From contig OZ242021.1 of the NCBI GenBank assembly GCA_965204925.1, positions 2,222,454 to 2,286,453 on the forward strand: a stretch of 64,000 bases of DNA, written 5' to 3'. The number at the start of each line of letters is the position of its first letter. Position 1 is the stretch's first letter. Shown piece by piece: positions 5,079 to 46,583 of this stretch. The position numbers were made by a program, and so were the translations under genes. This stretch comes from Candidatus Poriferihabitaceae bacterium (GTDB taxonomy: Bacteria; Pseudomonadota; Gammaproteobacteria; Arenicellales; Poriferihabitantaceae). The notes beneath the pieces were generated by a model. It had not been told where the DNA came from and did no database searches. It saw nothing but the letters and a program-made list of their open reading frames with translations.

Positions 5079-6699
5079 CTAAAGCGACCGGTAATAATCA
5101 CGAATTTTTCTGGCCATAAGACGCCGGCGCTCTTTCAGGAAGCCGTTGTAGTTATCGACGTCCATCTCTTCCATGTCCTCGGGTATGCAGTGAGCCTGAA
5201 GGTTCGCGCGTAGCTCGTCAGCGTCGGTGATGCCGCCGTATCCGGATTCTCCATTCGCGCATTGGCGCCACAACGCGCTGAAATACGAAGCGGGCGGAGC
5301 ATCGCCGATGGCGATGTTGATCTCGCCTTGCATCACCACATAGTTCGCGATCTGGTTGTAGGCGCCGCGAGCCAGACCGCGCTTCTTCAGATAATTCCGT
5401 GGAAAGACGTGGTGGACCTGGGAGGCGCCTTCCAGCAGAGTCCGAACGGTATGGCCGTTCGACAGGAATCCCTTGTCGTTTCCCTTGACCTGACTCGCCA
5501 GGAACACTTTGAAATAAGAGCTGCTCGCCACTGAGGTGTCCATCTGTTGCGGTAGGCCAGTGTCCCAGAACACATCCGACAGCCTGGCCTGCTCCACCGC
5601 TTCAAGGCAGTCCTGTGCGTTCTGTTCCGTGATGTTGCGGATATCCACACCGAATGCGGTCTCCGGCGAACCCGTGTATCGGCCGGTGAGAACGGACATG
5701 ATGAACCAGCGACGCACCAGTGTCTCGATGAGCGTCGGATGCGTGTCCCGCGCGCGTAACGTCAGATAGACGATATAGGCGAAGTTCACGGCATTCTGCG
5801 ACCGGATCATTGATGCGTTCACGAACCCTGCCGAGCGCAGGATCATCACGAAGCGCTTGAAATTCGTCTCGTTCATGAAACGCAGGAGCGCCGCATCAAG
5901 CCTGCTGAACGCATCCTCGGCGATCACCTCCTCAAACTCGCTGTCGCCAGCGAGTTCGGAATACGCTTCCGGCGCCACGGCGAGGTGGCAGAAATAATCA
6001 ATGCACTTTCGCAGTTGGTGGCCGTTGTACCTTTCGTTCGCCGCCATCTTCGACATGGCGAAGTCTGCCGCATTCAGCGTAACGCCCTGTGAGTTGATAC
6101 GGACGAATATCTCCGAGACGGTTTCCACATTCAGATCGGCATTGAGTTCGATGAGGCCGAGTAAATTGTTGCGGATGCCCCGCAGCCATTCAATCCGTTC
6201 GTAGATCTGGTCTTTGTTTGATTCCGGGTTGCTCTCGCAATAGGCGTCGACCACTCGAAGCAGTCTGGTGTCGGGGGTGAACAGGGTTGCGATGTCGGCA
6301 AGCCATGCCCTGTCGCGCTGGATGGCGGGATTGGCCACCTCGAACCGTTCCTCACCGGGATGGAACGCGACCGTGATACGCACCTTCCGGTAGCTCTTGT
6401 TGACGACCTGCTGCCCGAGCATGGCTGCCATGAGCGCCGTGACACGCTGCTGGCCATCAAGTAAGAGTGCGCTTGCCCGCCGATTTGCTTCCGTCCTTCA
6501 ACCGGACGGAGGGATTACGCCAGGCGATGAGATACCCGACCGGATAGCCGAAATACAGCGAGTCGATGAAATCGCGCGCTTTCGCTGCGTTCCAGACAAA
6601 CGGTCGTTGAATCTCGGGGATTGCAATCTCGTCGGACTTGATCCAGGTGAGCAGCGTCTGGACCGGATGCTGATTGACCGAGTAGCGTTGGATGGTCAT
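5079..6699 (-). pseudogene. GmrSD-like type IV restriction protein (DUF262 N-terminal + DUF1524/His-Me-finger C-terminal), interrupted by a frameshift near 6465-6500
   Basis: The 80-aa ORF 6457-6699 carries the DUF262 start ([34 protein letters not shown]) and stops at 6457. The DGQQR motif (…[17 protein letters not shown]…) continues in a different frame into the 450-aa ORF 5079-6431. That ORF ends with an HNH-like block (HHVFPRNYLKK…NYVVMQGEINIAIGD). Confidence 0.75.
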
Positions 6700-6836
6700 G
6701 GCGGCTCCTGATATGCGATGTCCCGACAGCTTCGAGTTCGTTCTCTTTGTTTTGAAGGGCGCTGCAGGGTTTTTTATTTTTTGATGTCGAAATTCGATAC
6801 TATGGGTGACTGTTTCGAACTACCACAGCAGATCGG

Positions 6837-6845
6837 ATTATAACA
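6837..6845 (-). promoter_or_regulatory. Extended -10 element (TGTTATAAT on the minus strand) upstream of the DUF262 gene
   Basis: The reverse complement of attataaca at 6837-6845 is TGtTATAAT. It lies about 135 nt upstream of the ATG at 6699, which is preceded by the SD caggagcc. Confidence 0.35.
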
Positions 6846-6854
6846 TTTCGGGAG

Positions 6855-6903
6855 TGTCCGATCGTTTGTGTTTTCGGGGCGGCAGCCGGTTTTTTCGGTT
6901 CTT
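6855..6903. repeat. 49-bp patch copied from the MFS gene interior (4269-4317), sitting at the seam between the DUF262 module and the R-M module
   Basis: 48 of 49 positions are identical to 4269-4317, in the same orientation. Confidence 0.9.
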
Positions 6904-7057
6904 CAGGAAATCACGTGGCCAATCGCCGATCTGGCAACCCGCCGGAGGGGTGGCCTTGTCCGCATACTCCTGACGCCTGCGTTTGCATCCGAAAATCCCG
7001 CCGAATCCACCAAGGGATGTCCTTGGCGGGAATTGCTGGGATGGGTTCACCGCAATT

Positions 7058-7085
7058 TTGACATGTGTCCCGTCTAATTTATAAT
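7058..7085 (+). promoter_or_regulatory. Perfect consensus sigma70-type promoter TTGACA-N16-TATAAT pointing toward the methyltransferase
   Basis: ttgaca at 7058-7063, a 16-nt spacer, and tataat at 7080-7085, read directly from the sequence. Confidence 0.5.
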
Positions 7086-7400
7086 CCTCCGACCCGATGC
7101 ATAGTTGATGCTTCTAACATTTGGCCGCCAAGCGATGCTCTCTCAGCCGAAAGTGCTTTCTTTACTAATCCTTAGTCCCGACGAGCTTCAGCTTTCCGTC
7201 TCCTCTAACAGATCAATTACCGTTATGCCCCAAGGCACAATTATGCTAGATTGTCCGCGTTGGTCAAAGTGTTTACTGAAATCGGACGACGCCCCCGACG
7301 TGGCCCAAAACGAATTTCAATTGCTCCAGCGCGCGCCGATGCCTGCTGCACAGCGGTCATCTGGATGCTGTAGCGCGGATTCCCTCTTGCGTGGCGCGGC

Positions 7401-8435
7401 TTGTTTCAAGAGCTACCGCTCTGGCGGTTCACACTCTTTCTTCGGAGCATAGCGCCCTTGACCAGTTCCTCGACACCGAATACCCCTATAGACCAACTGT
7501 TTGGTCGTCAAAGTTCTCCAACGGAGCCAACACAAATTACGATATCCGCAGGCGCCTGCCACTCTCGGAAAAACGCAACAATAATTCACGGTGATTGCCT
7601 GGATGTTCTGCCGGCTCTCCCGAGTAGTTCAGTGGACCTCATTTTTGCAGATCCTCCGTATAACATTGGAAAACAATTCAGGAATTTCAAAGACTCATGG
7701 TCCTCTATCCACGAATACATGGATTGGTGCTACAGGTGGCTTGAACATTGTATCCGAATCTTAAAGCCAACAGGTAGTATGTATGTGATGATGAGTACTC
7801 AGTCGATGCCTTATCTTGATATTTGGCTGAGAGATCGTGTCAATATTTTGTCGAGAATTGTTTGGCACTATGATAGTTCAGGTGTACAAGCGAAATCCTG
7901 CTTTGGTTCCCTTTACGAACCGATACTCCATTGTTCAAAAGATAACAAGCATTACACATTCAATGCCAACGACATCGCTGTCGAAGCAAGAACGGGGGCA
8001 GTTCGGAATCTGATCGACTACCGCAAGGAAGTCCCCACTCCATACAATACAAGGAAGGTTCCTGGTAATACCTGGTATATTCCACGTGTTCGATATCGGA
8101 TGCCAGAGTACGAAGAGCATCCAACGCAAAAGCCTGAAACTCTATTGGAGAGGATAATCAAGGCTAGTTCAAATACTGGGGATATTGTGCTTGATCCATT
8201 CGGTGGTACATTTACAACATGTGCAGTGTCCCAACGTCTAGATAGAACATCAATTGGAATCGAACTTCAGTTAGATTTTGTCAAGATTGGCATTCGCCGA
8301 CTTGGAATTGCTGATCGTTTTAGGGGTGAGCGTCTCCACTCGCCGACTAAATCATACCGTCGCAAGAACAGAAAGAACGTGGATGGCCCTGAGGAAAAGA
8401 GAGTACAAAAGGAGCTTTTCGATGGGACCATTTGA
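7401..8435 (+). CDS. DNA methyltransferase, beta-class N6-adenine/N4-cytosine family (N6_N4_Mtase), DPPY type
   Basis: Motif IV (DLIFADPPYNIG) precedes motif I (DIVLDPFGGTFTTC), which is the beta-class order. The catalytic region starts around 7570 (NATIIHGDCLDVLP). The annotated start is a TTG and the true start is uncertain. Confidence 0.88.
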   Translation: MFQELPLWRFTLFLRSIAPLTSSSTPNTPIDQLFGRQSSPTEPTQITISAGACHSRKNATIIHGDCLDVLPALPSSSVDLIFADPPYNIGKQFRNFKDSWSSIHEYMDWCYRWLEHCIRILKPTGSMYVMMSTQSMPYLDIWLRDRVNILSRIVWHYDSSGVQAKSCFGSLYEPILHCSKDNKHYTFNANDIAVEARTGAVRNLIDYRKEVPTPYNTRKVPGNTWYIPRVRYRMPEYEEHPTQKPETLLERIIKASSNTGDIVLDPFGGTFTTCAVSQRLDRTSIGIELQLDFVKIGIRRLGIADRFRGERLHSPTKSYRRKNRKNVDGPEEKRVQKELFDGTI

Positions 8436-9561
8436 AATCACTCGTCACGACTTCACCCAAACTATTCTGGAGACCCTGGAAGAACATTTCGGCGAAAGCG
8501 CTTCCGACATCTTTTCGAGTAGTCCAATACTCGGGTATCTCAACACAAAAACAAAATCTGCACATCGTGGGTCGAAAGCACGAGGATCGTTCGCCAATCA
8601 CTACGCATTGTATGTTGTCGTGGAAGATTATATTCAAAAAGGATTTCTGGAAAGGACTGCCGGTACGGCTTATGCTCAATATGAAGGCGCTCGATTTTCC
8701 GATCTGTTTCGGCGACAACGAGAATTGCCATTCGGCGCCAAGTTGCAAAATCACGCGCTTAATTCACGTCTCAATGATGAATTTCGAAAATTCTACCCGA
8801 CAGTGGGGAAGTTACCCATTGTTCGTAATTTGGAAACGCAACGCTATTGGGTGCAAGAGGATCTTCTCTTATTGACGATTCGTGATAGTACGGGTAAAGA
8901 TTACACTTACAATATTTCGCAAGCAATCATTGATATCATTGATAAATACGTCCAAACCAAGAGGGCAGCGTTCCAGAAGTTTATTGACACCTGCCGACAA
9001 TTAGCAGAATCAGGAAGCGAGGTTTCCCAGAAGGCTATCAATTTTGTTATAGAGCAGCTTGCGCCTGATGTGGACGCGCGAGTTTTTGAAATCGTGAGCT
9101 ATGCTATTCTGAAGGCGAAATACCGACAAGATAACATTTGGATAGGGGAAACGCGAGAGGACGTTGCGGAGGAGGTTCTGGTTCTGTATAAGACAGGACG
9201 AACAAATGCCAATGATGGAGGTATCGATTTTGTCATGAGGCCGCTGGGTCGATTTTTTCAAGTAACTGAAACCATAGACGCAAACAAGTACTTCTTGGAT
9301 ATTGATAAGATACAAAAGTTTCCAATTACGTTCGTCGTTAAATCTACGCAAAGCGTGGAACAGATAAGAGGGGAAATTCGAGAAAAGGCTGTACAGAAAT
9401 ATAAGATTGGGGCAGTCGTCGAAGCGTACATGGATGCTGTGGAAGAGATTATCAATGTTGAGTGCTTGGTTAATGTCTTCAACGATATCGTCGAATCAGG
9501 AGAATTGGGAAGCGTTATGGAAGAAATTATCTTGCAGAGTAAGGTGGAATTCAATTACTAG
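8422..9561 (+). CDS. Putative restriction endonuclease partner of the methyltransferase
   Basis: The ATG at 8422 is preceded by aaaaggag and overlaps the MTase 3' end by 14 nt, suggesting translational coupling. An Mrr/PD-(D/E)XK-like block is present (…TGRTNANDGGIDFVMRPLGRFFQVTETID…). I did not recognise a named family. Confidence 0.5.
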   Translation: MGPFEITRHDFTQTILETLEEHFGESASDIFSSSPILGYLNTKTKSAHRGSKARGSFANHYALYVVVEDYIQKGFLERTAGTAYAQYEGARFSDLFRRQRELPFGAKLQNHALNSRLNDEFRKFYPTVGKLPIVRNLETQRYWVQEDLLLLTIRDSTGKDYTYNISQAIIDIIDKYVQTKRAAFQKFIDTCRQLAESGSEVSQKAINFVIEQLAPDVDARVFEIVSYAILKAKYRQDNIWIGETREDVAEEVLVLYKTGRTNANDGGIDFVMRPLGRFFQVTETIDANKYFLDIDKIQKFPITFVVKSTQSVEQIRGEIREKAVQKYKIGAVVEAYMDAVEEIINVECLVNVFNDIVESGELGSVMEEIILQSKVEFNY

Positions 9562-9617
9562 ATAGTGTCGCCACAAGAAAGGGCCAGTGTATGGTATGAT
9601 CGACGGATGGGAATTCT

Positions 9618-9778
9618 TTTCAACCCAGCGAAGTGAAGCGCAAGAGAACCCACGGGTTTCGTGAACGTATGCGTAACCCGCGGGGGGCGCGCGATTATCA
9701 ATGCACGCCGAGCCAGGGGGCGCGTCCGTTTAAGCGCTTGACGAAATTGAGTCATGTCGCCGCTCACGGCTGGCCTCG
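9618..9778 (+). pseudogene. Truncated, frameshifted duplicate of rpmH (from codon ~5) plus the first ~8 codons of rnpA
   Basis: Aligns to 12577-12736 with one extra A (gcgtaacccg vs gcgtacccg) and one substitution. It lacks the rpmH start codon and promoter. Confidence 0.9.
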
Positions 9779-9890
9779 CGCTATAGAAAACCGGGAAGAA
9801 TCCGGCAATGACCGTAGTCGCGAATGCCGAGTTGCCCCAGTCATACAATGCCCAGGCGACTACCTTTTTGTCAGTCAGGATTGTGCGCAT
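9778..9890 (-). pseudogene. Duplicate of the first 113 bp of the MFS gene (MRTILTDKKVVAWALYDWGNSAFATTVIAGFFPVFYSA…), fused to the rpmH'/rnpA' fragment
   Basis: Matches 4815-4927 at 112 of 113 positions. The junction with the rnpA' fragment is at 9778 with about 1 nt of shared sequence. Its ATG lies 4 nt after the stop of the AAA-ATPase gene. Confidence 0.9.
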
Positions 9891-9894
9891 CCAG

Positions 9895-11460
9895 TTACCC
9901 CGTCCGCATGGCCGCAAGGTTGCGCTTGTCGCGGTCAAATACAAGGGCAAGCAGATGAATGCGTCGGTTCCCCGTGCGGTACTTGTCGGCATAGCCCTTA
10001 TCTCTTATCTGCACAAGCGCCTGTTCTGCCTTTGCTTCCACCTGCGCTTCATCCGCTACTTTCAATTCCAGTACAAATACCTGATTATCCCGTACCAATA
10101 CCATGTCGGAACGTCCCCGCCAGGTGGAGTCTTCGGGATGAACCTTGACACCCAGTGTGATAAAACAGGCATAGAGCAGGGAAGCGTAATAACCTTCGGA
10201 ATATCCTCCATCCTTGCGGCGTTGCCACTGATACGGAATACCGGCAAAGAACGCCTGCAACTCCCGCTCAAATCCCGCAAAGTCGCTGGCATCCAGCAAG
10301 GCAAGCCAAGTCTTGACGTACCGTGAGGTTTGCACCAAATCCCCGGTAACCGCCTCCAGCAACTGATTGTTCAGGCTCACCTTCACTTCATGGTTGGGAT
10401 AGTCCAGTGTGAAGGAGATTCCGGCAGGACCAGTCTCTTCATCGACAATGGTCAGATAGCCGCACTGGAATAACAGGGCGTTGAGATTGACTTTGCCGAC
10501 CTCGAATGTGGACAGGTCGCTGCGGCGCATGACCAGATTCTCAAGGTCCAGTGTATTGACCTCTCCGCTTGCCATGCGGTCATAGAGGAATGAAGGTGTG
10601 CCGGTCTCATACCACCAGGGGATGAACTCTCGTTTCTGGAGATACAGCAGGATGTCGAACGGGTTATAGACTTTCTCCTGCCCGCGCCAGTGATAGCCGT
10701 TGTACCAGTGGCGGATGTTCTCGCGCTCTTCTTCCGGTATATCTTCCAGTTCCGCGGCGAATACCGTTTCCAGGTCATTCTGGGTATAACCGCACAGCGT
10801 GGCATACTCAGGGTCCAGGCTGATGTCGTTGAGATTGTTCAGCTTCGAGAACAGACTGACCTTGGAGTACATGCTGATACCGGCAACAAAGACGAAGCGA
10901 ATGTAGCGAGCGCAGCCCTTGATCATGCCATAGAAACCGCGCAGAAAGTCGCGGTTCTCTACAGCCAGTTCCTCATTTTCCAGCACATCGAGGATCGGCT
11001 TGTCGTATTCGTCTACGAGAACGACAACCTGCTGCCCGCTCTTGTAATAAAGACGCTCTATGAGGCTGCGAAGGCGGGTCGGACCGGTATCCGCTTCTGT
11101 GTCCGGCTCAAGACCCTGGCGGTACTCTATATTCCTTAACTGCAGCATGACATCCTTTTCGAGCTCCCCTGACTCATTGTATTTGCCGTCAAAACTCAGA
11201 CGTACGACCGGATGGCTGATACTCCAGTCCCAATGTTCATGAATATGAAGTCCGCGGAACAACTCCTCGCTGCCGGCAAACAGTTCATGCAGCGTATCTA
11301 TGAGCAGGCTCTTGCCAAAACGGCGCGGGCGCGACAGGAAGTAATATCCGGGCCTTCTTGTCAAATTCCAGATATGGGGGGTTTTATCCACATAGTAAAA
11401 GTTCCACTTGCGAATGTTGCCAAACGAAGCATCGCCGATCGGTAGTTCCAGTCTGTCCAT
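9895..11460 (-). CDS. AAA-ATPase-like / PD-(D/E)XK nuclease family protein (AAA-ATPase_like + PDDEXK_9, former DUF1703 architecture)
   Basis: The N-terminus (FGNIRKWNFYYVDKTPHIWNL…GYYFLSRPRRFGKSLLIDTLHELF) is characteristic of this family. The C-terminus has a D…ExK block (GRSDMVLVRDNQVFVLELKV). Confidence 0.8.
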   Translation of the reverse strand: MDRLELPIGDASFGNIRKWNFYYVDKTPHIWNLTRRPGYYFLSRPRRFGKSLLIDTLHELFAGSEELFRGLHIHEHWDWSISHPVVRLSFDGKYNESGELEKDVMLQLRNIEYRQGLEPDTEADTGPTRLRSLIERLYYKSGQQVVVLVDEYDKPILDVLENEELAVENRDFLRGFYGMIKGCARYIRFVFVAGISMYSKVSLFSKLNNLNDISLDPEYATLCGYTQNDLETVFAAELEDIPEEERENIRHWYNGYHWRGQEKVYNPFDILLYLQKREFIPWWYETGTPSFLYDRMASGEVNTLDLENLVMRRSDLSTFEVGKVNLNALLFQCGYLTIVDEETGPAGISFTLDYPNHEVKVSLNNQLLEAVTGDLVQTSRYVKTWLALLDASDFAGFERELQAFFAGIPYQWQRRKDGGYSEGYYASLLYACFITLGVKVHPEDSTWRGRSDMVLVRDNQVFVLELKVADEAQVEAKAEQALVQIRDKGYADKYRTGNRRIHLLALVFDRDKRNLAAMRTG

Positions 11461-16453: not shown

Positions 16454-16602
16454 CGATGCGCATGGCTGCCCGGCGGCGATAATGTTTCCATGCGCGGAAA
16501 ATAATTACTTGTATAATCCAGTATATAATATGGTGAAATTCTGGCAACGGCGCCATCGCATGGGCAATCCGGGGCTGACGCGAATGAACCGGGAAAAATA
16601 GA

Positions 16603-17619
16603 ATGATTGAAGCGACCCCACATAACTACACCCGAAGTATTTTGTTGCAAATACTGATTGTTCTGGTAATTTTGACCCTTGCGGCGGTTTGGCAGAGAGA
16701 TATTATCACGCAGATTTATTTCCACAATCAGGTCAATGCAGTAGGCTGGCTGGTCAACGGCGGTATCTTGTTGCTGTTTGTTTGTGGTCTGTTTGAGCTG
16801 ATTAAACGCTTCCTGGAATACCGCACCCAGGAGCAGGCGATCAACCGCTTGCAGTCCAACATTGGCGCAGACCGTGAGCCATTGCTCGGGATTCCCCGAA
16901 AGCTGATGATCTCCGAACGCTTTCTGACCCTCCAGTCACTCAGCCATCGACGTGAGGCGGTCAATCAGAACGCTCTGGCCGCTACTTTGCTGGCTTCGGA
17001 GTCCAGCCGCAACAGCTTTTTGAAATTTGTCCATAATGTACTGATTCTGACCGGAGTATTCGGAACAATTGTCTCCCTGTCGATTTCGTTGCTGGGTGCC
17101 TCCGATATTTTGCAGAGCAGCGGACAGATCAATATTCTTCCGGGCGGCGACCAGGAAAGCGCGAAAGGACTGGGCACGATGATTTTCGGTATGTCGACCG
17201 CGTTGTCGACGACGTTGACAGCAATCCTTGCTTACCTGTTTTTTGGTTATTTCTATATCAAGCTGACCGATACCCAGACTTTCCTGATCAGTAAGGTCGA
17301 AGAAGTGACGGCGACCACTCTGATGCCCTGGCTCCAGAGCAGCCAAAAAGTGGACGCGCTGGATTTTTCCGATATTCAGTCTGCCGGCGAATTGGTTGAG
17401 AGGCTTGGGCAAGCGCAGGAGCGGATAACGCAGAAACTGACGGAATTACTGGAATCCCGGGCGCTGGAAGATAAGGGCAACCAGGATATGCTGACCCTGA
17501 TTCGTGAAATGATTGAAGTGCAGATGTCCACGACTAACCAGAATAATGAAAATCTGAATGAGGTTGTAACCCTGTTGCAACGAGGATTCCGCTTGCGCCC
17601 CGGTGGTCTGGAACCCTAG
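16603..17619 (+). CDS. MotA/TolQ/ExbB-like proton-channel family membrane protein with a ~110-aa C-terminal helical tail
   Basis: 4 predicted TM segments. The TM3-TM4 region resembles the MotA_ExbB core (…VLILTGVFGTIVSLSISL… and …GTMIFGMSTALSTTLTAILAYLFFGYFY…, compare TolQ GLFGTVWGI / AEALIATAIGLFAAIPA). An AT-rich upstream region has two TATAAT hexamers (16512-16517, 16524-16529). Confidence 0.6.
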   Translation: MIEATPHNYTRSILLQILIVLVILTLAAVWQRDIITQIYFHNQVNAVGWLVNGGILLLFVCGLFELIKRFLEYRTQEQAINRLQSNIGADREPLLGIPRKLMISERFLTLQSLSHRREAVNQNALAATLLASESSRNSFLKFVHNVLILTGVFGTIVSLSISLLGASDILQSSGQINILPGGDQESAKGLGTMIFGMSTALSTTLTAILAYLFFGYFYIKLTDTQTFLISKVEEVTATTLMPWLQSSQKVDALDFSDIQSAGELVERLGQAQERITQKLTELLESRALEDKGNQDMLTLIREMIEVQMSTTNQNNENLNEVVTLLQRGFRLRPGGLEP

Positions 17620-17632
17620 CGCGGACTGTATA

Positions 17633-19951
17633 ATGCTGAAAACCAACGGCTTTGTCGATCTTCGGATCGGTCACGGCGCCACAGGCATCGGGGATGAAAG
17701 CGTATGGCCGTCTTTCACCGACATCATGACCGTCGTCGTTATGATATTTCTGATGACGCTGGTCGTCATCATGGTGCGCAATTTTGGATTGAGCAGTGAG
17801 TTGTTGACCAATATCTCGGCCAGGGAGGCGGCGATGTTGGCCAACCAGGATCTGGCGCAAAAAAACACGGAACTGCAAGCCTCCCTGCAAAGCACGGAAA
17901 GCGAACGCTCCTCACTCGCCGTATCGCTGGCGCAAGCGTTTGATCGCATTGCCTTGCTTACCGAGAATCAGCTTGAGCTACAGGCAGACCTGGAGTCAAT
18001 GGCGGCGGTGCGCGAGGAGCTTGAGCAGGCAAATACGCGGCTGCGACAGGCCCAGCTTGAGACATTGACGGAGGTTGAGGTTCTGACTGCCGACACGGAG
18101 AGCCTGGCGCGGCAGAAACTGGAGCTTGAGTCTGCCTTGCAAGGTACGGAAGTTGCGTTACAGGACACGAGAGCCGAGTTGCGGGGTACGGAGGCGGAAC
18201 GGTCTTCGCTGGCGGAGTCGCTTGAGCAGGCGCTTGAGCGGATTGGCGCGCTTGTCGAGAGTGAGCGCGGGTTGCAGGATGAAGTAGCGCTGTTGACGGC
18301 GACGCGGGAAGAGCTTGAGTCTGCCTTGCAAGGTACGGAAGTTGCGTTGCAGGACACGAGAGCCGAGTTGCGGGGTACGGAGGCGGAACGGTCTTCGCTG
18401 GCGGAGTCGCTTGAGCAGGCGCTTGAGCGGATTGGCGCGCTTGTCGAGAGTGAGCGCGGGTTGCAGGATGAAGTAGCGCTGTTGACGGCGACGCGGGAAG
18501 AGCTTGAGTCTGCCTTGCAAGGTACGGAAGTTGCGTTGCAGGACACGAGAGCCGAGTTGCGGGGTACGGAGGCGGAACGGTCTTCGCTGGCGGAGTCGCT
18601 TGAGCAGGCGCTTGAGCGGATTGGCGCGCTTGTCGAGAGTGAGCGCGGGTTGCAGGATGAAGTGGCGTTGTTGACGGCGGCGCGCGAGGAGCTTGAGCAG
18701 GCAAACGCGCGGCTGCGGCAGGCCCGGCTTGAGACATTGACGGAGGTTGAGGTTCTGACTGCCGACACGGAGAGTCTGGCGCGACAGAAGCTGGAGCTTG
18801 AGTCTGCCTTGCAAGGTACGGAAGTTGCGTTACAGGACACGAGAGCCGAGTTGCGGGGTACGGAAGCTGAACGGTCTTCGCTGGCGGAGTCGCTTGAGCA
18901 GGCGCTTGAGCGGATTGGCGCGCTTGTCGAGGGTGAGCGCGGGTTGCAGGATGAAGTGGCGTTGTTGACGGCGGCGCGCGAGGAGCTTGAGCAGGCAAAC
19001 GCGCGGCTGCGGCAGGCCCGGCTTGAGACATTGACGGAGGTTGAGGCTCTGACTGCCGACACGGAGAGTCTGGCGCGGCAGAAGCTGGAGCTTGAGTCTG
19101 CCTTGCAAGGTACGGAAGTTGCGTTACAGGACACGAGAGCCGAGTTGCGGGGTACGGAAGCTGAACGGTCTTCGCTGGCGGAGTCGCTTGAGCAGGCGCT
19201 TGAGCGGATTGGCGCGCTTGTCGAGAGTGAGCGCGGGTTGCAGGATGAGCTTGCCGGGCAGACTGCCAACGAACTGCTTTTAAGCCGAAATATCGGATCG
19301 CTCAATGAAACGTTGGCCGAGTTGGAGATACAGTCCGAATCTCGCATCTCTTCTCTCATTGAAGAAAGAGCCACATTGGAGGAGCGCATCCATAGCCTGT
19401 CCCGGCAACTTGAGCATTTGCAGCGGTTATTGGCCCGATCCACTCTTGAGAATCGGTTGCTGAGTGAGGAAATGGCGCAAGTGGAAAGAATCAATGAAAG
19501 CGCGTCGGAACGATATGCCCGCGTGGCTGATGAGATTTTGTCACTGCAAGAATTGATCGGGCAAAGAGAAGCGGAAATTGCCGCTTTGCAGGCAAGTGTG
19601 GATACGTCCGCCCGGCAATACCGCTCCCTGCAGGAGGAGTACGAAAGTCTTGATGCCCAGTATCGCAGGCTGGTTCGTCCCGCGAGAAGCCCGGCCGGGA
19701 AAACAGTGGCTGAAATCAGGGTCGGGAAAAACGCCGGGGCCTGGTCATATGAGATCAAGCAACCGGGCGACATCCAATGGACGCAGGTTTCCCGAGGCCA
19801 GATGGATTCAACCTTGCAGAAACTGAAAAACCGGCTGGGTACATCGCTGTATACGAAAATCGTCATTCCTGACGACAGCAACCTTACTTTTAATGAGGCT
19901 TGGGGTTTTACCTGGGAGATCCTGCAAAAGTATGATTATTATTACCAATAG
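17633..19951 (+). CDS. MotB/ExbD-like single-TM anchor protein with a long tandem-repeat coiled coil and an unknown C-terminal domain (no OmpA-like domain seen)
   Basis: The N-terminus (…[24 protein letters not shown]) mirrors the MotB TM with its conserved Asp (E. coli YADFMTAMMAFFLVMW). About 650 aa of heptad-like E/L/A/Q/R-rich sequence follows, ending in a ~110-aa non-repetitive C-terminus. The ATG at 17633 is preferred; a GTG at 17603 would overlap the upstream gene by 17 nt. Confidence 0.55.
18023..19250 (+). repeat. In-frame tandem repeat array: five 189-bp units (63 aa) and three 105-bp linker units (35 aa), also readable as 294-bp higher-order repeats
   Basis: The unit start gagtctgccttgcaaggtacgg occurs at 18128, 18317, 18506, 18800 and 19094, giving spacings of 189, 189, 294 and 294. 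The linker gagcaggcaaa[t/c]gcgcggctgcg… occurs at 18023, 18695 and 18989. Copies differ by only a few nucleotides. Confidence 0.95.
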
Positions 19952-45842: not shown

Positions 45843-46583
45843 ATGAACATTCAGGGGGACAGTCATATTTTCAAGCGTTTTGACCAGGAAATGCAGTATC
45901 TGCATGATTTGGTCGTACAAATGGGCGAGCTTGCGGTCAATCAGCTTGAGGATGCTCTGGGCACCTTGAAAAACGAGAATCCGGGGAAAGCCCGGGAGGT
46001 CATCAGAAACGATAAAAAACTGAACGATCTCGATGTGCAGGCGGATAATGAAATCATCCGTCTGATCGCATTGCGCCAGCCCGTCGCCAGGGATTTGAGA
46101 GCGCTGATCTCGATCGGGAAAATTGTTGCGGAACTGGAACGCGCCGGTGATGAAGCCAGGAAAATTGCCGGCTTGACCATTCGTTTTTTCGAGGCCGGTC
46201 AAAACCCGCCGAGCGAAGAAATATTGCGGGATATCCATTCTCTTTCCGTCTGTGTGATCAACATGCTGGAAATGTCCATGCAGGCATTCGATGGTCTGAA
46301 TCTTGATCTGGCGGCAGATGTTCTGATCGAAAGCGCGCAGCTGGATAATCAGTTGAAATCAATACTGCGGCGGCTTGGTGCATTCATCATGGAGGATTCC
46401 GGAAATGTCGATCATTTTGTAGACATTGTGCTTGGCATTCGCGCGCTCGAACGGTTTGGCGGGCACAGCAGCAATATCGCCGGGCATATCGTATTTATCG
46501 AAAAGGGGATAGATGTGCGCCACACGGACGACAGAACCATTTTGCGCAATATCGGGGATGTATATCGGGGATGTATATATTGA
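45843..46583 (+). CDS. phoU: Phosphate signalling complex protein PhoU
   Basis: FDQEMQYLHDLVVQMG…NDLD…IRLIALRQPVARDLR…ELERAGDEA… shows a duplicated PhoU repeat. The ATG at 45843 is chosen. Confidence 0.9.
   Translation: MNIQGDSHIFKRFDQEMQYLHDLVVQMGELAVNQLEDALGTLKNENPGKAREVIRNDKKLNDLDVQADNEIIRLIALRQPVARDLRALISIGKIVAELERAGDEARKIAGLTIRFFEAGQNPPSEEILRDIHSLSVCVINMLEMSMQAFDGLNLDLAADVLIESAQLDNQLKSILRRLGAFIMEDSGNVDHFVDIVLGIRALERFGGHSSNIAGHIVFIEKGIDVRHTDDRTILRNIGDVYRGCIY

What the first reader, a model, noticed from the sequence alone, without database searches (positions are those of the whole stretch)
18023..19250. Near-identical in-frame 189-bp / 105-bp (294-bp higher-order) tandem repeats build the coiled coil
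- Five 63-aa units ([58 protein letters not shown][T/A]REEL) and three 35-aa linkers (EQAN[T/A]RLRQA[Q/R]LETLTEVE[V/A][15 protein letters not shown]) are arranged L-U-U-U-L-U-L-U.
- Copies differ by only a handful of nucleotides, which implies very recent expansion or ongoing gene conversion.
- All unit lengths are multiples of 3, so gaining or losing a copy would change the rod length in discrete steps (63 or 98 aa) without breaking the frame. That would act as a potential 'molecular ruler' or phase-variable length.
- Such arrays are also prone to collapse or expansion in short-read assemblies, so the true copy number is uncertain.
Basis: seen in the sequence. Interest (0 to 1): 0.55.

Follow-up and report, generated by a model that had tools for sequence, protein, structure and literature searches.

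The report
Repeat-lengthened stalk of a membrane motor
The near-identical repeats are real and recently lengthened the coiled-coil stalk of the MotB/ExbD-like subunit of an uncharacterised two-gene, probably ion-driven, membrane motor; across hundreds of species this stalk grows and shrinks almost only in whole seven-residue steps.

Summary
Window 18017-19248 holds the array L1-U1-U2-U3-L2-U4-L3-U5, with U = 189 bp and L = 105 bp. Copies are 93-99.5% identical. U5 is truncated, and an old diverged copy (U0) lies upstream.

The array sits in a 772-aa protein, B (17633-19951):
- B has an N-terminal MotB/ZorB/ExbD-type transmembrane helix with an invariant Asp.
- About 630 residues of coiled coil follow.
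- B ends in a roughly 90-aa alpha/beta head with no detectable relatives of known structure or family.

The gene directly upstream, A (16603-17619), is a divergent MotA/ExbB/TolQ-fold protein. The A-B pair occurs in at least 538 species genomes.

All unit lengths are multiples of 21 nt, so one heptad register runs unbroken for about 530 residues. Family-wide, the distance from the membrane helix to the head ranges from 184 to 723 residues. It falls almost only in classes 7n+2 and 7n+6. Fourteen other species carry their own tandem duplications in this stalk.

Differences between copies are mostly synonymous, so the copies are translated and under selection.

The most likely origin is recombination or slippage that expanded a parallel dimeric periplasmic stalk, filtered for coiled-coil continuity. 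A role as a ruler or phase-variable length is untested. The motor's function is unknown.

The parts
16603..17619 (+). Gene A (338 aa). It is a divergent MotA/ExbB/TolQ-type membrane subunit with four predicted TM helices and a roughly 110-aa helical C-terminal tail. It is the obligate upstream partner of B.
   Evidence: - 41 of 44 family members give weak PF01618 MotA_ExbB matches (best E 3.8e-6). The window protein itself scores 10.6 bits against a cut-off of 22.9.
- Foldseek searches of the AF2 model (pLDDT 68) return ExbB, TolQ, ZorA or MotA chains for 49 of the top 50 PDB hits (prob about 1.0, TM-score up to 0.61).
- An A homolog lies directly upstream of B in 77 of 78 loci.
- 2114 homologs were found.
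17633..19951 (+). Gene B (772 aa plus stop). It encodes a MotB/ZorB/ExbD-type transmembrane helix, a very long coiled coil and a small C-terminal head.
   Evidence: - Translation.
- Orthologs start at the same [11 protein letters not shown].
- Family searches.
17705..17776 (+). Transmembrane ('transpore') helix of B, residues 25-48 ([24 protein letters not shown]). The invariant Asp30 is encoded at 17720-17722.
   Evidence: - W25, P26, F28, T29, D30 and M32 are invariant in 23 sequences.
- The profile hits ZorB chains 8vvn_B (E 5e-7), 8vvi_A (5e-5) and 8qyd_F (1e-3), then ExbD and TolR, with the Asp aligned.
- PADLOC ZorB3 matches at 3e-5.
17828..18016 (+). U0, an old diverged copy of the 189-bp unit (residues 66-128).
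   Evidence: 58% nt identity and 25/63 aa identity to U3.
18017..18121 (+). L1, a 105-bp linker unit (35 aa = 5 heptads).
   Evidence: It differs by 7 nt from L2 and from L3.
18122..18688 (+). U1, U2 and U3: three head-to-tail 189-bp units (63 aa = 9 heptads each), starting at 18122, 18311 and 18500.
   Evidence: U1 and U2 differ by 1 nt; U2 and U3 by 5 nt.
18689..18793 (+). L2, a 105-bp linker unit.
   Evidence: It differs by 2 nt from L3.
18794..18982 (+). U4, a 189-bp unit.
   Evidence: It differs by 4 nt from U3.
18983..19087 (+). L3, a 105-bp linker unit.
19088..19248 (+). U5, a truncated unit (about 160 of 189 nt) that merges into unique coiled-coil sequence.
19249..19675 (+). Non-repeated distal coiled coil (residues 540-681). 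It contains the register shifts (stutters).
   Evidence: The register changes from class 0 to class 4 at about residue 560-590 and alternates after that. This part is conserved in orthologs.
19676..19690 (+). Conserved RPARS motif at the junction of coil and head (residues 682-686).
   Evidence: R682, A684, R685 and S686 are invariant or nearly so. I used this motif as the distal anchor for length counting.
19691..19948 (+). C-terminal alpha/beta head (residues 687-772), ending in YDYYYQ.
   Evidence: - AF2 predicts strand-strand-strand-helix-strand-helix with pLDDT 86-94.
- No Pfam family matches.
- No PDB match by sequence or by fold (best Foldseek E 0.04).
- The family has 383 clusters among 1.84 billion representatives, and the domain lies at or within about 22 residues of the C terminus in the 150 best-scoring hits listed.

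Best explanation
**What it is.** The array is a recent, in-frame and in-heptad-phase tandem expansion of the stalk of protein B.
- B is the MotB/ExbD/TolR-type partner of a divergent MotA/ExbB/TolQ-type protein A, encoded directly upstream.
- By homology with the 5:2 ion-driven motors, two B chains would sit with their Asp-bearing helices inside a ring of five A chains. Their periplasmic parts would then pair as a parallel, in-register dimeric coiled coil that carries the small C-terminal head.

**How the array arises.** The 189-bp and 294-bp units are long enough for unequal homologous recombination or replication slippage. The 9-bp GAGCTTGAG shared by all unit starts could give U-U junctions by loss of an L unit.

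**Why it is tolerated.** In a parallel homodimer, any insertion is matched in the partner chain. Only the continuity of the hydrophobic seam has to be kept. That explains why nearly all length changes in this family are whole heptads, or heptads plus a 4-residue stutter.

**Consequence here.** This genome has one of the longest stalks of the family. About 630 residues would be about 93 nm if straight, roughly three times the modal stalk.

**Shown:**
- the repeat anatomy
- heptad continuity
- purifying selection on the copies
- A-B gene coupling
- the MotB/ZorB-like helix with its Asp
- the ExbB/TolQ-like fold of A
- family-wide quantised stalk length
- recurrent independent duplications

**Inferred:**
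- 5:2 stoichiometry
- periplasmic location
- parallel dimer
- recombination as the mechanism
- transmission of force or rotation by the stalk to a periplasmic or outer-membrane partner
For: **Repeat anatomy.**

**Heptad structure.** Units are 63, 35 and 98 aa, which is 9, 5 and 14 heptads. One register holds from about residue 52 to about 585, across all junctions. Position d is mostly Leu, and position a is Leu/Ile/Val with Asn, Arg and Lys.

**Selection on the copies.** 12 of the 17 variable sites among copies are synonymous, against 26% expected (binomial p = 1e-4).

**B is MotB/ZorB/ExbD-like.**
- The N-terminal profile hits ZorB chains at E 5e-7, 5e-5 and 1e-3, then ExbD and TolR, with the Asp aligned.
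- PADLOC ZorB models and NCBIfam PRK09039 hit the same segment.

**A is MotA/ExbB/TolQ-like.**
- 41 of 44 relatives hit PF01618 weakly.
- 49 of the top 50 Foldseek PDB hits are ExbB, TolQ, ZorA or MotA.
- A lies directly upstream of B in 77 of 78 loci.

**Stalk length across the family.**
- At least 538 species genomes encode a relative.
- The distance from WPSFTD to RPARS is 184-723 residues in 78 distinct proteins. Modulo 7 it equals 6 (40 proteins), 2 (27), 3 (7), 0 (3) and 4 (1), and never 1 or 5.
- With a second anchor and 188 proteins, two classes hold 140 of 188. A chi-square test on distinct lengths gives p = 1e-11.
- The nine closest orthologs (520-772 aa) all differ by exact multiples of 7.

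**Independent duplications elsewhere.** Other species have arrays with periods of 168, 252, 231, 294, 126, 84, 63 and 42 nt. Three arrays (369, 276 and 117 nt) are equivalent to 4, 1 and 4 residues mod 7.

**Precedent.** B-like subunits fused directly to a periplasmic transducer have been proposed before: the 'TPH-vWA' proteins in PMC12204202.
Against: - No multimer model or experiment supports the 5:2 assembly, the parallel dimer or the periplasmic location. All three rest on homology.
- The window's A scores below the Pfam cut-off (10.6 against 22.9 bits). Its family profiles find no ExbB, TolQ or MotA chain by sequence in the PDB. Foldseek E-values are only 1e-3 to 1e-1 on a model of mean pLDDT 68.
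- A straight stalk of about 93 nm is about three times the usual distance between inner and outer membrane (my own knowledge: roughly 25-30 nm). The stalk must therefore bend, tilt, lie along the envelope or fold back, and none of these was tested.
- The head has no recognisable fold or partner, so the output of the machine is unknown.
- Gene conversion could produce the same near-identity as recent duplication.
Confidence: 0.7

Rival explanations
1. Adaptive length switch or ruler. Copy number changes at appreciable frequency within populations, and stalk length is tuned to an envelope dimension or target distance, for example in sponge-associated cells. On this reading the repeats exist because variability is selected.
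For: - Units of 189 and 294 bp at 93-99.5% identity are good recombination substrates.
- Length changes are clean heptad multiples.
- Stalks are often long in the Arenicellales / Ca. Poriferihabitaceae clade, and several members have young arrays.
- Changing a periplasmic coiled coil by 2-3 heptads changes envelope spacing and signalling in E. coli (Lpp; PMC5736177).
Against: - There are no population data, and one exact-match scan of metagenome contigs found nothing.
- Most orthologs, including the longest (801-841 aa), have no recent repeats. Long stalks are therefore stably inherited rather than switching.
- The four-fold length range has no evident relation to lineage, which argues against a tight ruler.
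Confidence: 0.15
2. Assembly artefact. The true gene has fewer or more units, and the assembler expanded, collapsed or mis-joined a repeat.
For: - Near-identical tandem units are a classic source of assembly error.
- The exact 772-aa product is not in the protein collection, although the neighbouring A protein is, at 100% identity.
Against: - Copies carry a structured, copy-specific pattern of 17 differences, biased towards synonymous changes.
- The reading frame and heptad phase are intact over the whole array.
- The identical A protein is on record on a 2.62-Mb contig. MAGs of this family from sponges come from PacBio HiFi reads that span 1.2 kb easily (PMC12859430).
- Relatives assembled independently show comparable arrays.
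Confidence: 0.1
3. The protein is a cytoplasmic, SMC-like or chromosome-related coiled-coil protein. This reading is suggested by its position between mnmE and mnmG near the replication-origin gene cluster and by a source annotation of 'chromosome segregation ATPase'.
For: - NCBIfam SMC models match at E 5e-17.
- JGI names one homolog 'chromosome segregation ATPase'.
- The order yidC-mnmE-A-B-mnmG is conserved in the Arenicellales-like clade.
Against: - The SMC matches score 61 bits against cut-offs of 567-729 and cover only coiled coil. There is no ATPase head.
- The N terminus is a MotB/ZorB-type membrane helix, and the partner is an ExbB/TolQ-fold membrane protein.
- Outside that clade the A-B pair sits among unrelated housekeeping genes, so the origin-proximal position is lineage history.
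Confidence: 0.03
4. It is a Zorya-type anti-phage system, because the nearest solved relatives of the B helix are ZorB chains.
For: The best PDB hits of the B N-terminal profile are ZorB. PADLOC ZorB1-3 models match weakly. ZorA is among the fold hits of A.
Against: - A has no PADLOC match.
- In Zorya the long coiled coil is the cytoplasmic tail of ZorA and ZorB carries a peptidoglycan-binding domain (established knowledge). Here the long coil is on B, and no OmpA-like domain is found.
- The pair is a vertically inherited core locus with conserved flanks.
Confidence: 0.02

Closest known systems
5:2 ion-driven motors ExbB-ExbD(-TonB) and TolQ-TolR(-TolA)
   Same: - Gene order is A then B.
- The A fold matches ExbB and TolQ chains.
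- B has a single N-terminal helix with the proton-binding Asp near its cytoplasmic end.
- The modal anchor-to-anchor spacing here (184-212 residues) is close to the median TolA domain II length of 192 residues reported in PMC12204202.
   Different: - There is no separate TonB- or TolA-like transducer; the long spacer is part of B itself.
- The C-terminal head is not detectably an ExbD/TolR periplasmic domain.
- A has four predicted TM helices and an extra helical tail of about 110 aa.
- The stalk reaches 723 residues, against a maximum of 335 for TolA domain II.
'TPH-vWA' proteins paired with TolQ-like genes (PMC12204202), and GldL-GldM of gliding motility / type IX secretion
   Same: The concept is shared: the dimeric B-type subunit carries both the Asp-bearing transpore helix and the periplasm-crossing output element, so the axle and the shaft are one protein (GldLM from established knowledge and PMC9389320, listed).
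   Different: The output element here is a heptad coiled coil plus a novel 90-aa head, not a vWA domain or the GldM domains. No sequence relationship was found beyond the helix.
MotB / ZorB (stator and Zorya B subunits); NCBIfam PRK09039 'peptidoglycan-binding protein' (MotB-like helix + coiled coil + OmpA domain)
   Same: These give the best sequence matches to the B helix. The PRK09039 match covers B residues 24-201, that is the helix and the adjoining coiled coil; its full helix + coiled coil + OmpA layout is from my own knowledge.
   Different: No OmpA-like peptidoglycan-binding domain is present. The PRK09039 score is 23 bits against a cut-off of 305. Nothing links the locus to flagella or defence.
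Repeat-built coiled-coil rods whose length changes by in-frame unit gain or loss (streptococcal M proteins, stalks of trimeric autotransporter adhesins; engineered Lpp+14/+21)
   Same: Near-identical in-frame tandem units lie within a coiled coil, and length changes in whole heptads. Lpp shows that heptad insertions in a periplasmic coiled coil have physiological consequences (PMC5736177). The M-protein and adhesin examples are from my own knowledge.
   Different: Those are surface or outer-membrane proteins, and variation is linked to immune or adhesive selection. This one is the inner-membrane-anchored subunit of a motor-like complex with a conserved partner gene.

Membership tests
MotA/TolQ/ExbB proton-channel family (Pfam PF01618), for protein A | Match to the family profile at the curated score | tested here: not met
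   The window's A scores 10.6 bits (E 0.5) against a cut-off of 22.9. However, 41 of 44 relatives match weakly, best E 3.8e-6, and three relatives carry a precomputed PF01618 hit.
MotA/TolQ/ExbB proton-channel family, for protein A | Fold of the A subunit: helical membrane hairpins with a cytoplasmic helical domain | tested here: met
   49 of the top 50 Foldseek PDB hits are ExbB, TolQ, ZorA or MotA chains. Probability is about 1.0, TM-score (target-normalised) up to 0.61 and E 1e-3 to 8e-2, on a model of mean pLDDT 68.
MotA/TolQ/ExbB proton-channel family, for protein A | Sequence-level match to solved members | tested here: not met
   Profiles of the whole A family and of its TM3-TM4 region find no ExbB, TolQ or MotA chain. 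The second alignment was shallow, at 70-86% identity.
5:2 motors (A5B2) | A and B genes adjacent, B directly downstream of A | tested here: met
   True in 77 of 78 loci. The one exception has no upstream sequence.
5:2 motors (A5B2) | Pentamer of A around a dimer of B; ion-driven rotation | not testable with these tools
   No multimer prediction or experiment was available.
MotB/ExbD/TolR/ZorB-type B subunits | Single N-terminal transmembrane helix with a conserved Asp near its cytoplasmic end | tested here: met
   Asp30 is invariant. The profile hits ZorB at 5e-7, 5e-5 and 1e-3, ExbD at 0.02-0.2 and TolR at 0.26, with the Asp aligned.
MotB / ZorB | C-terminal OmpA-like peptidoglycan-binding domain | tested here: not met
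   No OmpA-family match for the whole protein or for the C-terminal domain of 20 members.
ExbD/TolR (Pfam PF02472) | ExbD/TolR periplasmic domain | tested here: not met
Zorya defence system | A ZorA match for A, and ZorC/ZorD-type partner genes next to the pair | tested here: not met
   A has no PADLOC match. No partner gene is seen in the ORF lists beside the pair, and the flanking genes that were typed are housekeeping.
SMC / Rad50-type chromosome proteins | ATPase head domains flanking the coiled coil; curated score | tested here: not met
   Scores of 61 and 59 bits against cut-offs of 567 and 729, with matches confined to the coiled coil.
Canonical heptad coiled coil | Continuous a/d hydrophobic register | tested here: met
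   One register holds from about residue 52 to about 585 and then shifts by 4. The family-wide spacing is 7n+4k+2.

The most novel reading that the evidence does not exclude
A-B is a previously undescribed class of ion-driven rotary machine. The B dimer is both axle and a long coiled-coil drive shaft, up to about 100 nm, that works along or across the envelope. Its length is tuned in heptad steps by repeat gain and loss as an adaptive trait, for example in sponge-associated bacteria.
Probability: 0.15. Interest if true: 0.8.

Novelty: new variant of a known kind. Interest (0 to 1): 0.55.

Why it matters
The repeat array on its own is an ordinary kind of event: in-frame duplication in a coiled coil. 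Its host is what matters.

- **An unstudied motor family.** The host is a widespread two-gene relative of the Ton, Tol, Mot and Zorya motors, found in at least 538 species genomes. In it the force-transmitting spacer is fused to the B subunit.
- **A natural experiment on stalk length.** Evolution has already varied the stalk from 184 to 723 residues, almost always in whole heptads. This makes one question directly testable: does the length or the phase of the shaft matter for a 5:2 motor?
- **Cultured organisms to test it in.** Cultured carriers with short and long stalks exist: Thiothrix caldifontis DSM 21228 (301 aa) and Cocleimonas flava DSM 24830 (578 aa).
- **A caution for annotation.** Hits to SMC and names such as 'chromosome segregation ATPase' for these proteins are coiled-coil noise.

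Tried and rejected
- **ExbD/TolR-like head.** By eye the C-terminal head looked like an ExbD/TolR periplasmic domain. It has no Pfam hit, no PDB sequence hit and no Foldseek hit (best E 0.04, unrelated proteins), so I dropped the idea.
- **Sequence link from A to solved structures.** The whole-family A profile hit only designed helical proteins through its tail. The TM3-TM4 sub-profile gave 0 hits.
- **Third homolog search.** A search with the 121-aa C-terminal piece collected only 10 candidates. The exhaustive representative search replaced it.
- **Source contig and other samples.**
  - The exact B product is not in the collection.
  - The look-up of the identical A protein's contig failed.
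  - An exact 31-mer scan of metagenome contigs found nothing.
  - Population-level copy number therefore could not be examined.
- **Rejected readings.**
  - SMC-like: scores are far below the cut-offs and there is no ATPase head.
  - Zorya: no ZorA match and a housekeeping context.
  - Functional link to mnmE/mnmG: the adjacency is clade-specific.
- **Antisense ORFs.** The 637-aa and 357-aa ORFs on the minus strand across the array are by-products of the repetitive Glu/Leu/Ala codon content. Conservation and the excess of synonymous differences support the plus-strand frame.
Full report
**1. The observation**

Tandem Repeats Finder reports two overlapping arrays:
- a 189-bp period with 3.0 copies at 18122-18697, 98% matches;
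- a 294-bp period with 2.5 copies at 18500-19248, 98% matches.

The repeat finder independently gives five copies with spacing 189, 189, 294, 294.

Every unit starts with GAGCTTGAG, so I used that as the boundary. The map is L1 18017, U1 18122, U2 18311, U3 18500, L2 18689, U4 18794, L3 18983, U5 19088.

Copy differences are small:
- U1 and U2 differ by 1 nt.
- U3 and U4 differ by 4 nt.
- L2 and L3 differ by 2 nt.
- L1 differs from L2 and L3 by 7 nt.

- U5 matches for only about 160 nt and then runs into unique sequence.
- The 189 nt before L1 are an old copy, U0, with 58% nt identity to U3.
- This is the only sizeable tandem array in the 64-kb window.

**2. The host gene and its partner**

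The array lies in an ORF whose orthologs all start at the ATG at 17633. This gives a 772-aa protein, B.

*The N terminus is a MotB-type membrane helix.*
- Residues 25-48 read [10 protein letters not shown]... and form a transmembrane helix.
- A profile of this segment from 23 family members hits ZorB chains in the PDB at E 5e-7, 5e-5 and 1e-3. ExbD and TolR follow.
- The invariant Asp30 aligns with their ion-binding Asp.
- PADLOC ZorB models and NCBIfam PRK09039 hit the same segment.

*The middle is coiled coil.* The apparent SMC, Rad50 and JetC matches are coiled-coil noise. They score 61 bits against cut-offs above 560.

*The C terminus is a novel head.* The last roughly 90 residues are predicted with pLDDT 86-94 as a strand-strand-strand-helix-strand-helix domain. 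I found no relative of it in Pfam, in PDB sequences or in PDB folds.

*The upstream gene is ExbB/TolQ-like.* Gene A (16603-17619, 338 aa) has no Pfam hit at threshold.
- 41 of 44 relatives match PF01618 MotA_ExbB weakly.
- 49 of the top 50 Foldseek PDB hits to its AF2 model are ExbB, TolQ, ZorA or MotA chains.

**3. Distribution and context**

- At least 538 species genomes encode a B relative. Carriers include Arenicellales (with Ca. Poriferihabitaceae and Ca. Spongiihabitans), Thiothrix, Cocleimonas, Sedimenticolaceae and Ca. Thiodiazotropha.
- An A homolog lies directly upstream of B in 77 of 78 loci.
- The order yidC-mnmE-A-B-mnmG seen in the window is kept in the Arenicellales-like clade. 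Elsewhere the pair sits among unrelated housekeeping genes. The origin-proximal position is therefore lineage history, and the unit of function is the A-B pair.
- Nothing at these loci suggests a defence island or a mobile element.
- The head-domain family is small, with 383 clusters among 1.84 billion representatives. In the 150 best-scoring hits listed the domain lies at or within about 22 residues of the C terminus.

**4. What the repeats do to the protein**

The units are 63, 35 and 98 aa, which is 9, 5 and 14 heptads. A register scan shows one unbroken a/d register from about residue 52 to about 585, across every junction. Shifts of 4 residues (stutters) come only after that.

The same rule holds for the whole family:
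- In 78 distinct proteins the distance from WPSFTD to the RPARS motif ranges from 184 to 723 residues.
- Modulo 7 that distance is 6 (40 proteins), 2 (27), 3 (7), 0 (3) or 4 (1). It is never 1 or 5, so it fits 7n+4k+2.
- A second anchor and 188 proteins give the same picture. A chi-square test on distinct lengths gives p = 1e-11. The window protein is the third longest of the 188, at 730 residues against a median of 336.
- The nine closest orthologs are 520, 520, 534, 541, 590, 597, 604, 625 and 772 aa. Every difference is a multiple of 7.

**5. The stalk is a recurrent site of duplication**

Fourteen other species have their own tandem arrays in this gene.
- Eleven have periods of 168, 252, 231, 168, 294, 126, 84, 63, 42, 42 and 42 nt. 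All are multiples of 21.
- Three have periods of 369, 276 and 117 nt. These equal 123, 92 and 39 aa, or 4, 1 and 4 mod 7, the classic stutter and skip.
- The 123-aa unit explains the rarer length classes: 265, 388 and 511 residues correspond to one, two and three copies.
- Most orthologs, including the longest (801-841 aa), have no recent repeats. Long stalks are therefore also stably inherited.

**6. Are the copies real and expressed?**

Of 17 variable sites among the copies, 12 are synonymous, where 26% would be expected (p = 1e-4). The copies have therefore evolved as translated sequence.

The differences form a mosaic. U3 has the head of U1/U2 and the tail of U4. This fits a 294-bp duplication overlaid on a 189-bp one.

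An A protein identical to the window's is on record on a 2.62-Mb contig. Sponge-associated MAGs of this family were produced from PacBio HiFi reads (PMC12859430). I could not obtain reads.

One point remains unexplained. The exact B product is absent from the protein collection, although A is present.

**7. Mechanism**

*Shown:* the anatomy, the phase, selection on the copies, the family-wide quantisation of length, and the A-B coupling.

*Inferred from homology with 5:2 motors* (reviewed in PMC9389320; see also PMC12505986 and PMC12204202): two B helices sit inside an A pentamer, and their periplasmic parts form a parallel in-register dimer.
- In such a dimer any insertion is matched in the partner chain. 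Only seam continuity is selected, which explains the 7n / 7n+4 rule.
- An antiparallel hairpin would not tolerate one-sided duplications so easily.

*Origin of the array.* Recombination or slippage between 189- and 294-bp units is the simplest origin. Gene conversion could also maintain the identity between copies.

*Geometry.* At 0.148 nm per residue (established value) the modal stalk is about 23-27 nm, close to an envelope-spanning length (my own knowledge of periplasm width). The window's stalk would be about 93 nm, so it cannot stand straight across a normal periplasm. How it is accommodated is unknown.

**8. Comparison with known systems and verdict**

The pair works most like the motors whose B-type subunit is itself the periplasmic transducer. 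These are GldLM and the proposed TPH-vWA proteins (PMC12204202).

It is not a member of several families it superficially resembles:
- MotB or ZorB: no OmpA domain.
- ExbD or TolR: no such periplasmic domain detected.
- Zorya: no ZorA match, and no partner gene seen in the ORF lists beside the pair.
- SMC: no ATPase head.

I rate it a new variant of a known kind. The 'ruler / phase-variable' reading is untested, and the wide length range among orthologs argues against a strict ruler.

Noticed in passing
window 8001-11460: This is the lowest-GC stretch of the window (GC 0.47 at 8-10 kb against about 0.55 elsewhere). It holds a 427-aa ORF with no Pfam match (8278-9561 +) and a minus-strand gene with AAA-ATPase_like (PF09820) and PDDEXK_9 (PF08011) domains (9895-11460). 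It may be an acquired island.
   Followed up: partly
window 17958-19881, minus strand: Very long antisense ORFs (357 and 637 aa) run through the repeat array. I take them as by-products of the repetitive Glu/Leu/Ala codon content. Conservation and the excess of synonymous differences support the plus-strand frame.
   Followed up: partly
L009 6227-7328 (B gene positions 227-1328; gene at 6001-7881; Arenicellales MAG OY730442.1): The ortholog carries three perfect (100% identical) copies of a 369-bp / 123-aa unit. This is not a whole number of heptads (4 mod 7). Relatives L012 and L013 carry two copies of a 123-aa unit. The copy numbers account for the rarer length classes 3 and 0 mod 7.
   Followed up: partly
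window 17633-19951 versus the protein collection: The A protein of this genome is in the protein collection at 100% identity, on a 2,623,764-bp contig. The adjacent B protein is not there, either as an exact sequence or as a close hit (the best hits are 55-68% identical). This is unexplained.
   Followed up: partly
P0145 (Candidatus Magnetoovum chiemensis); L067 (MAG titled Parasphingorhabdus sp.): Relatives of the head domain or of the whole B protein are also recorded outside Gammaproteobacteria: in a record named for a Nitrospirota bacterium and in a MAG named for an alphaproteobacterium. This could be transfer, binning error or a wider distribution.
   Followed up: no
L070 about 6860-7170 (MAG UBA5680): A run of N or masked bases falls inside the stalk-coding part of the B gene. 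It shows up as about 100 identical unknown residues in the self-comparison. This protein is the only one in length class 4 mod 7, so that class is unreliable.
   Followed up: no
window 16465-16604: A weak terminator-like hairpin lies after mnmE (16465-16477) and a promoter-like site just before gene A (16575-16604). No terminator-like site lies between B and mnmG, where the gap is 29 nt. These are consensus matches only.
   Followed up: no
window 46549-46578: A small perfect tandem repeat with a 13-nt period and 2.3 copies. It is the only other TRF hit in the window.
   Followed up: no
window 17291-17619 (A residues about 230-338): Protein A has a helical C-terminal tail of about 110 aa, ending in the conserved motif LLQRGFRLR (G328, F329 and R330 invariant). 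The tail has no counterpart in the aligned ExbB and TolQ chains and is predicted with low confidence. It produced the spurious matches to designed helical proteins.
   Followed up: partly
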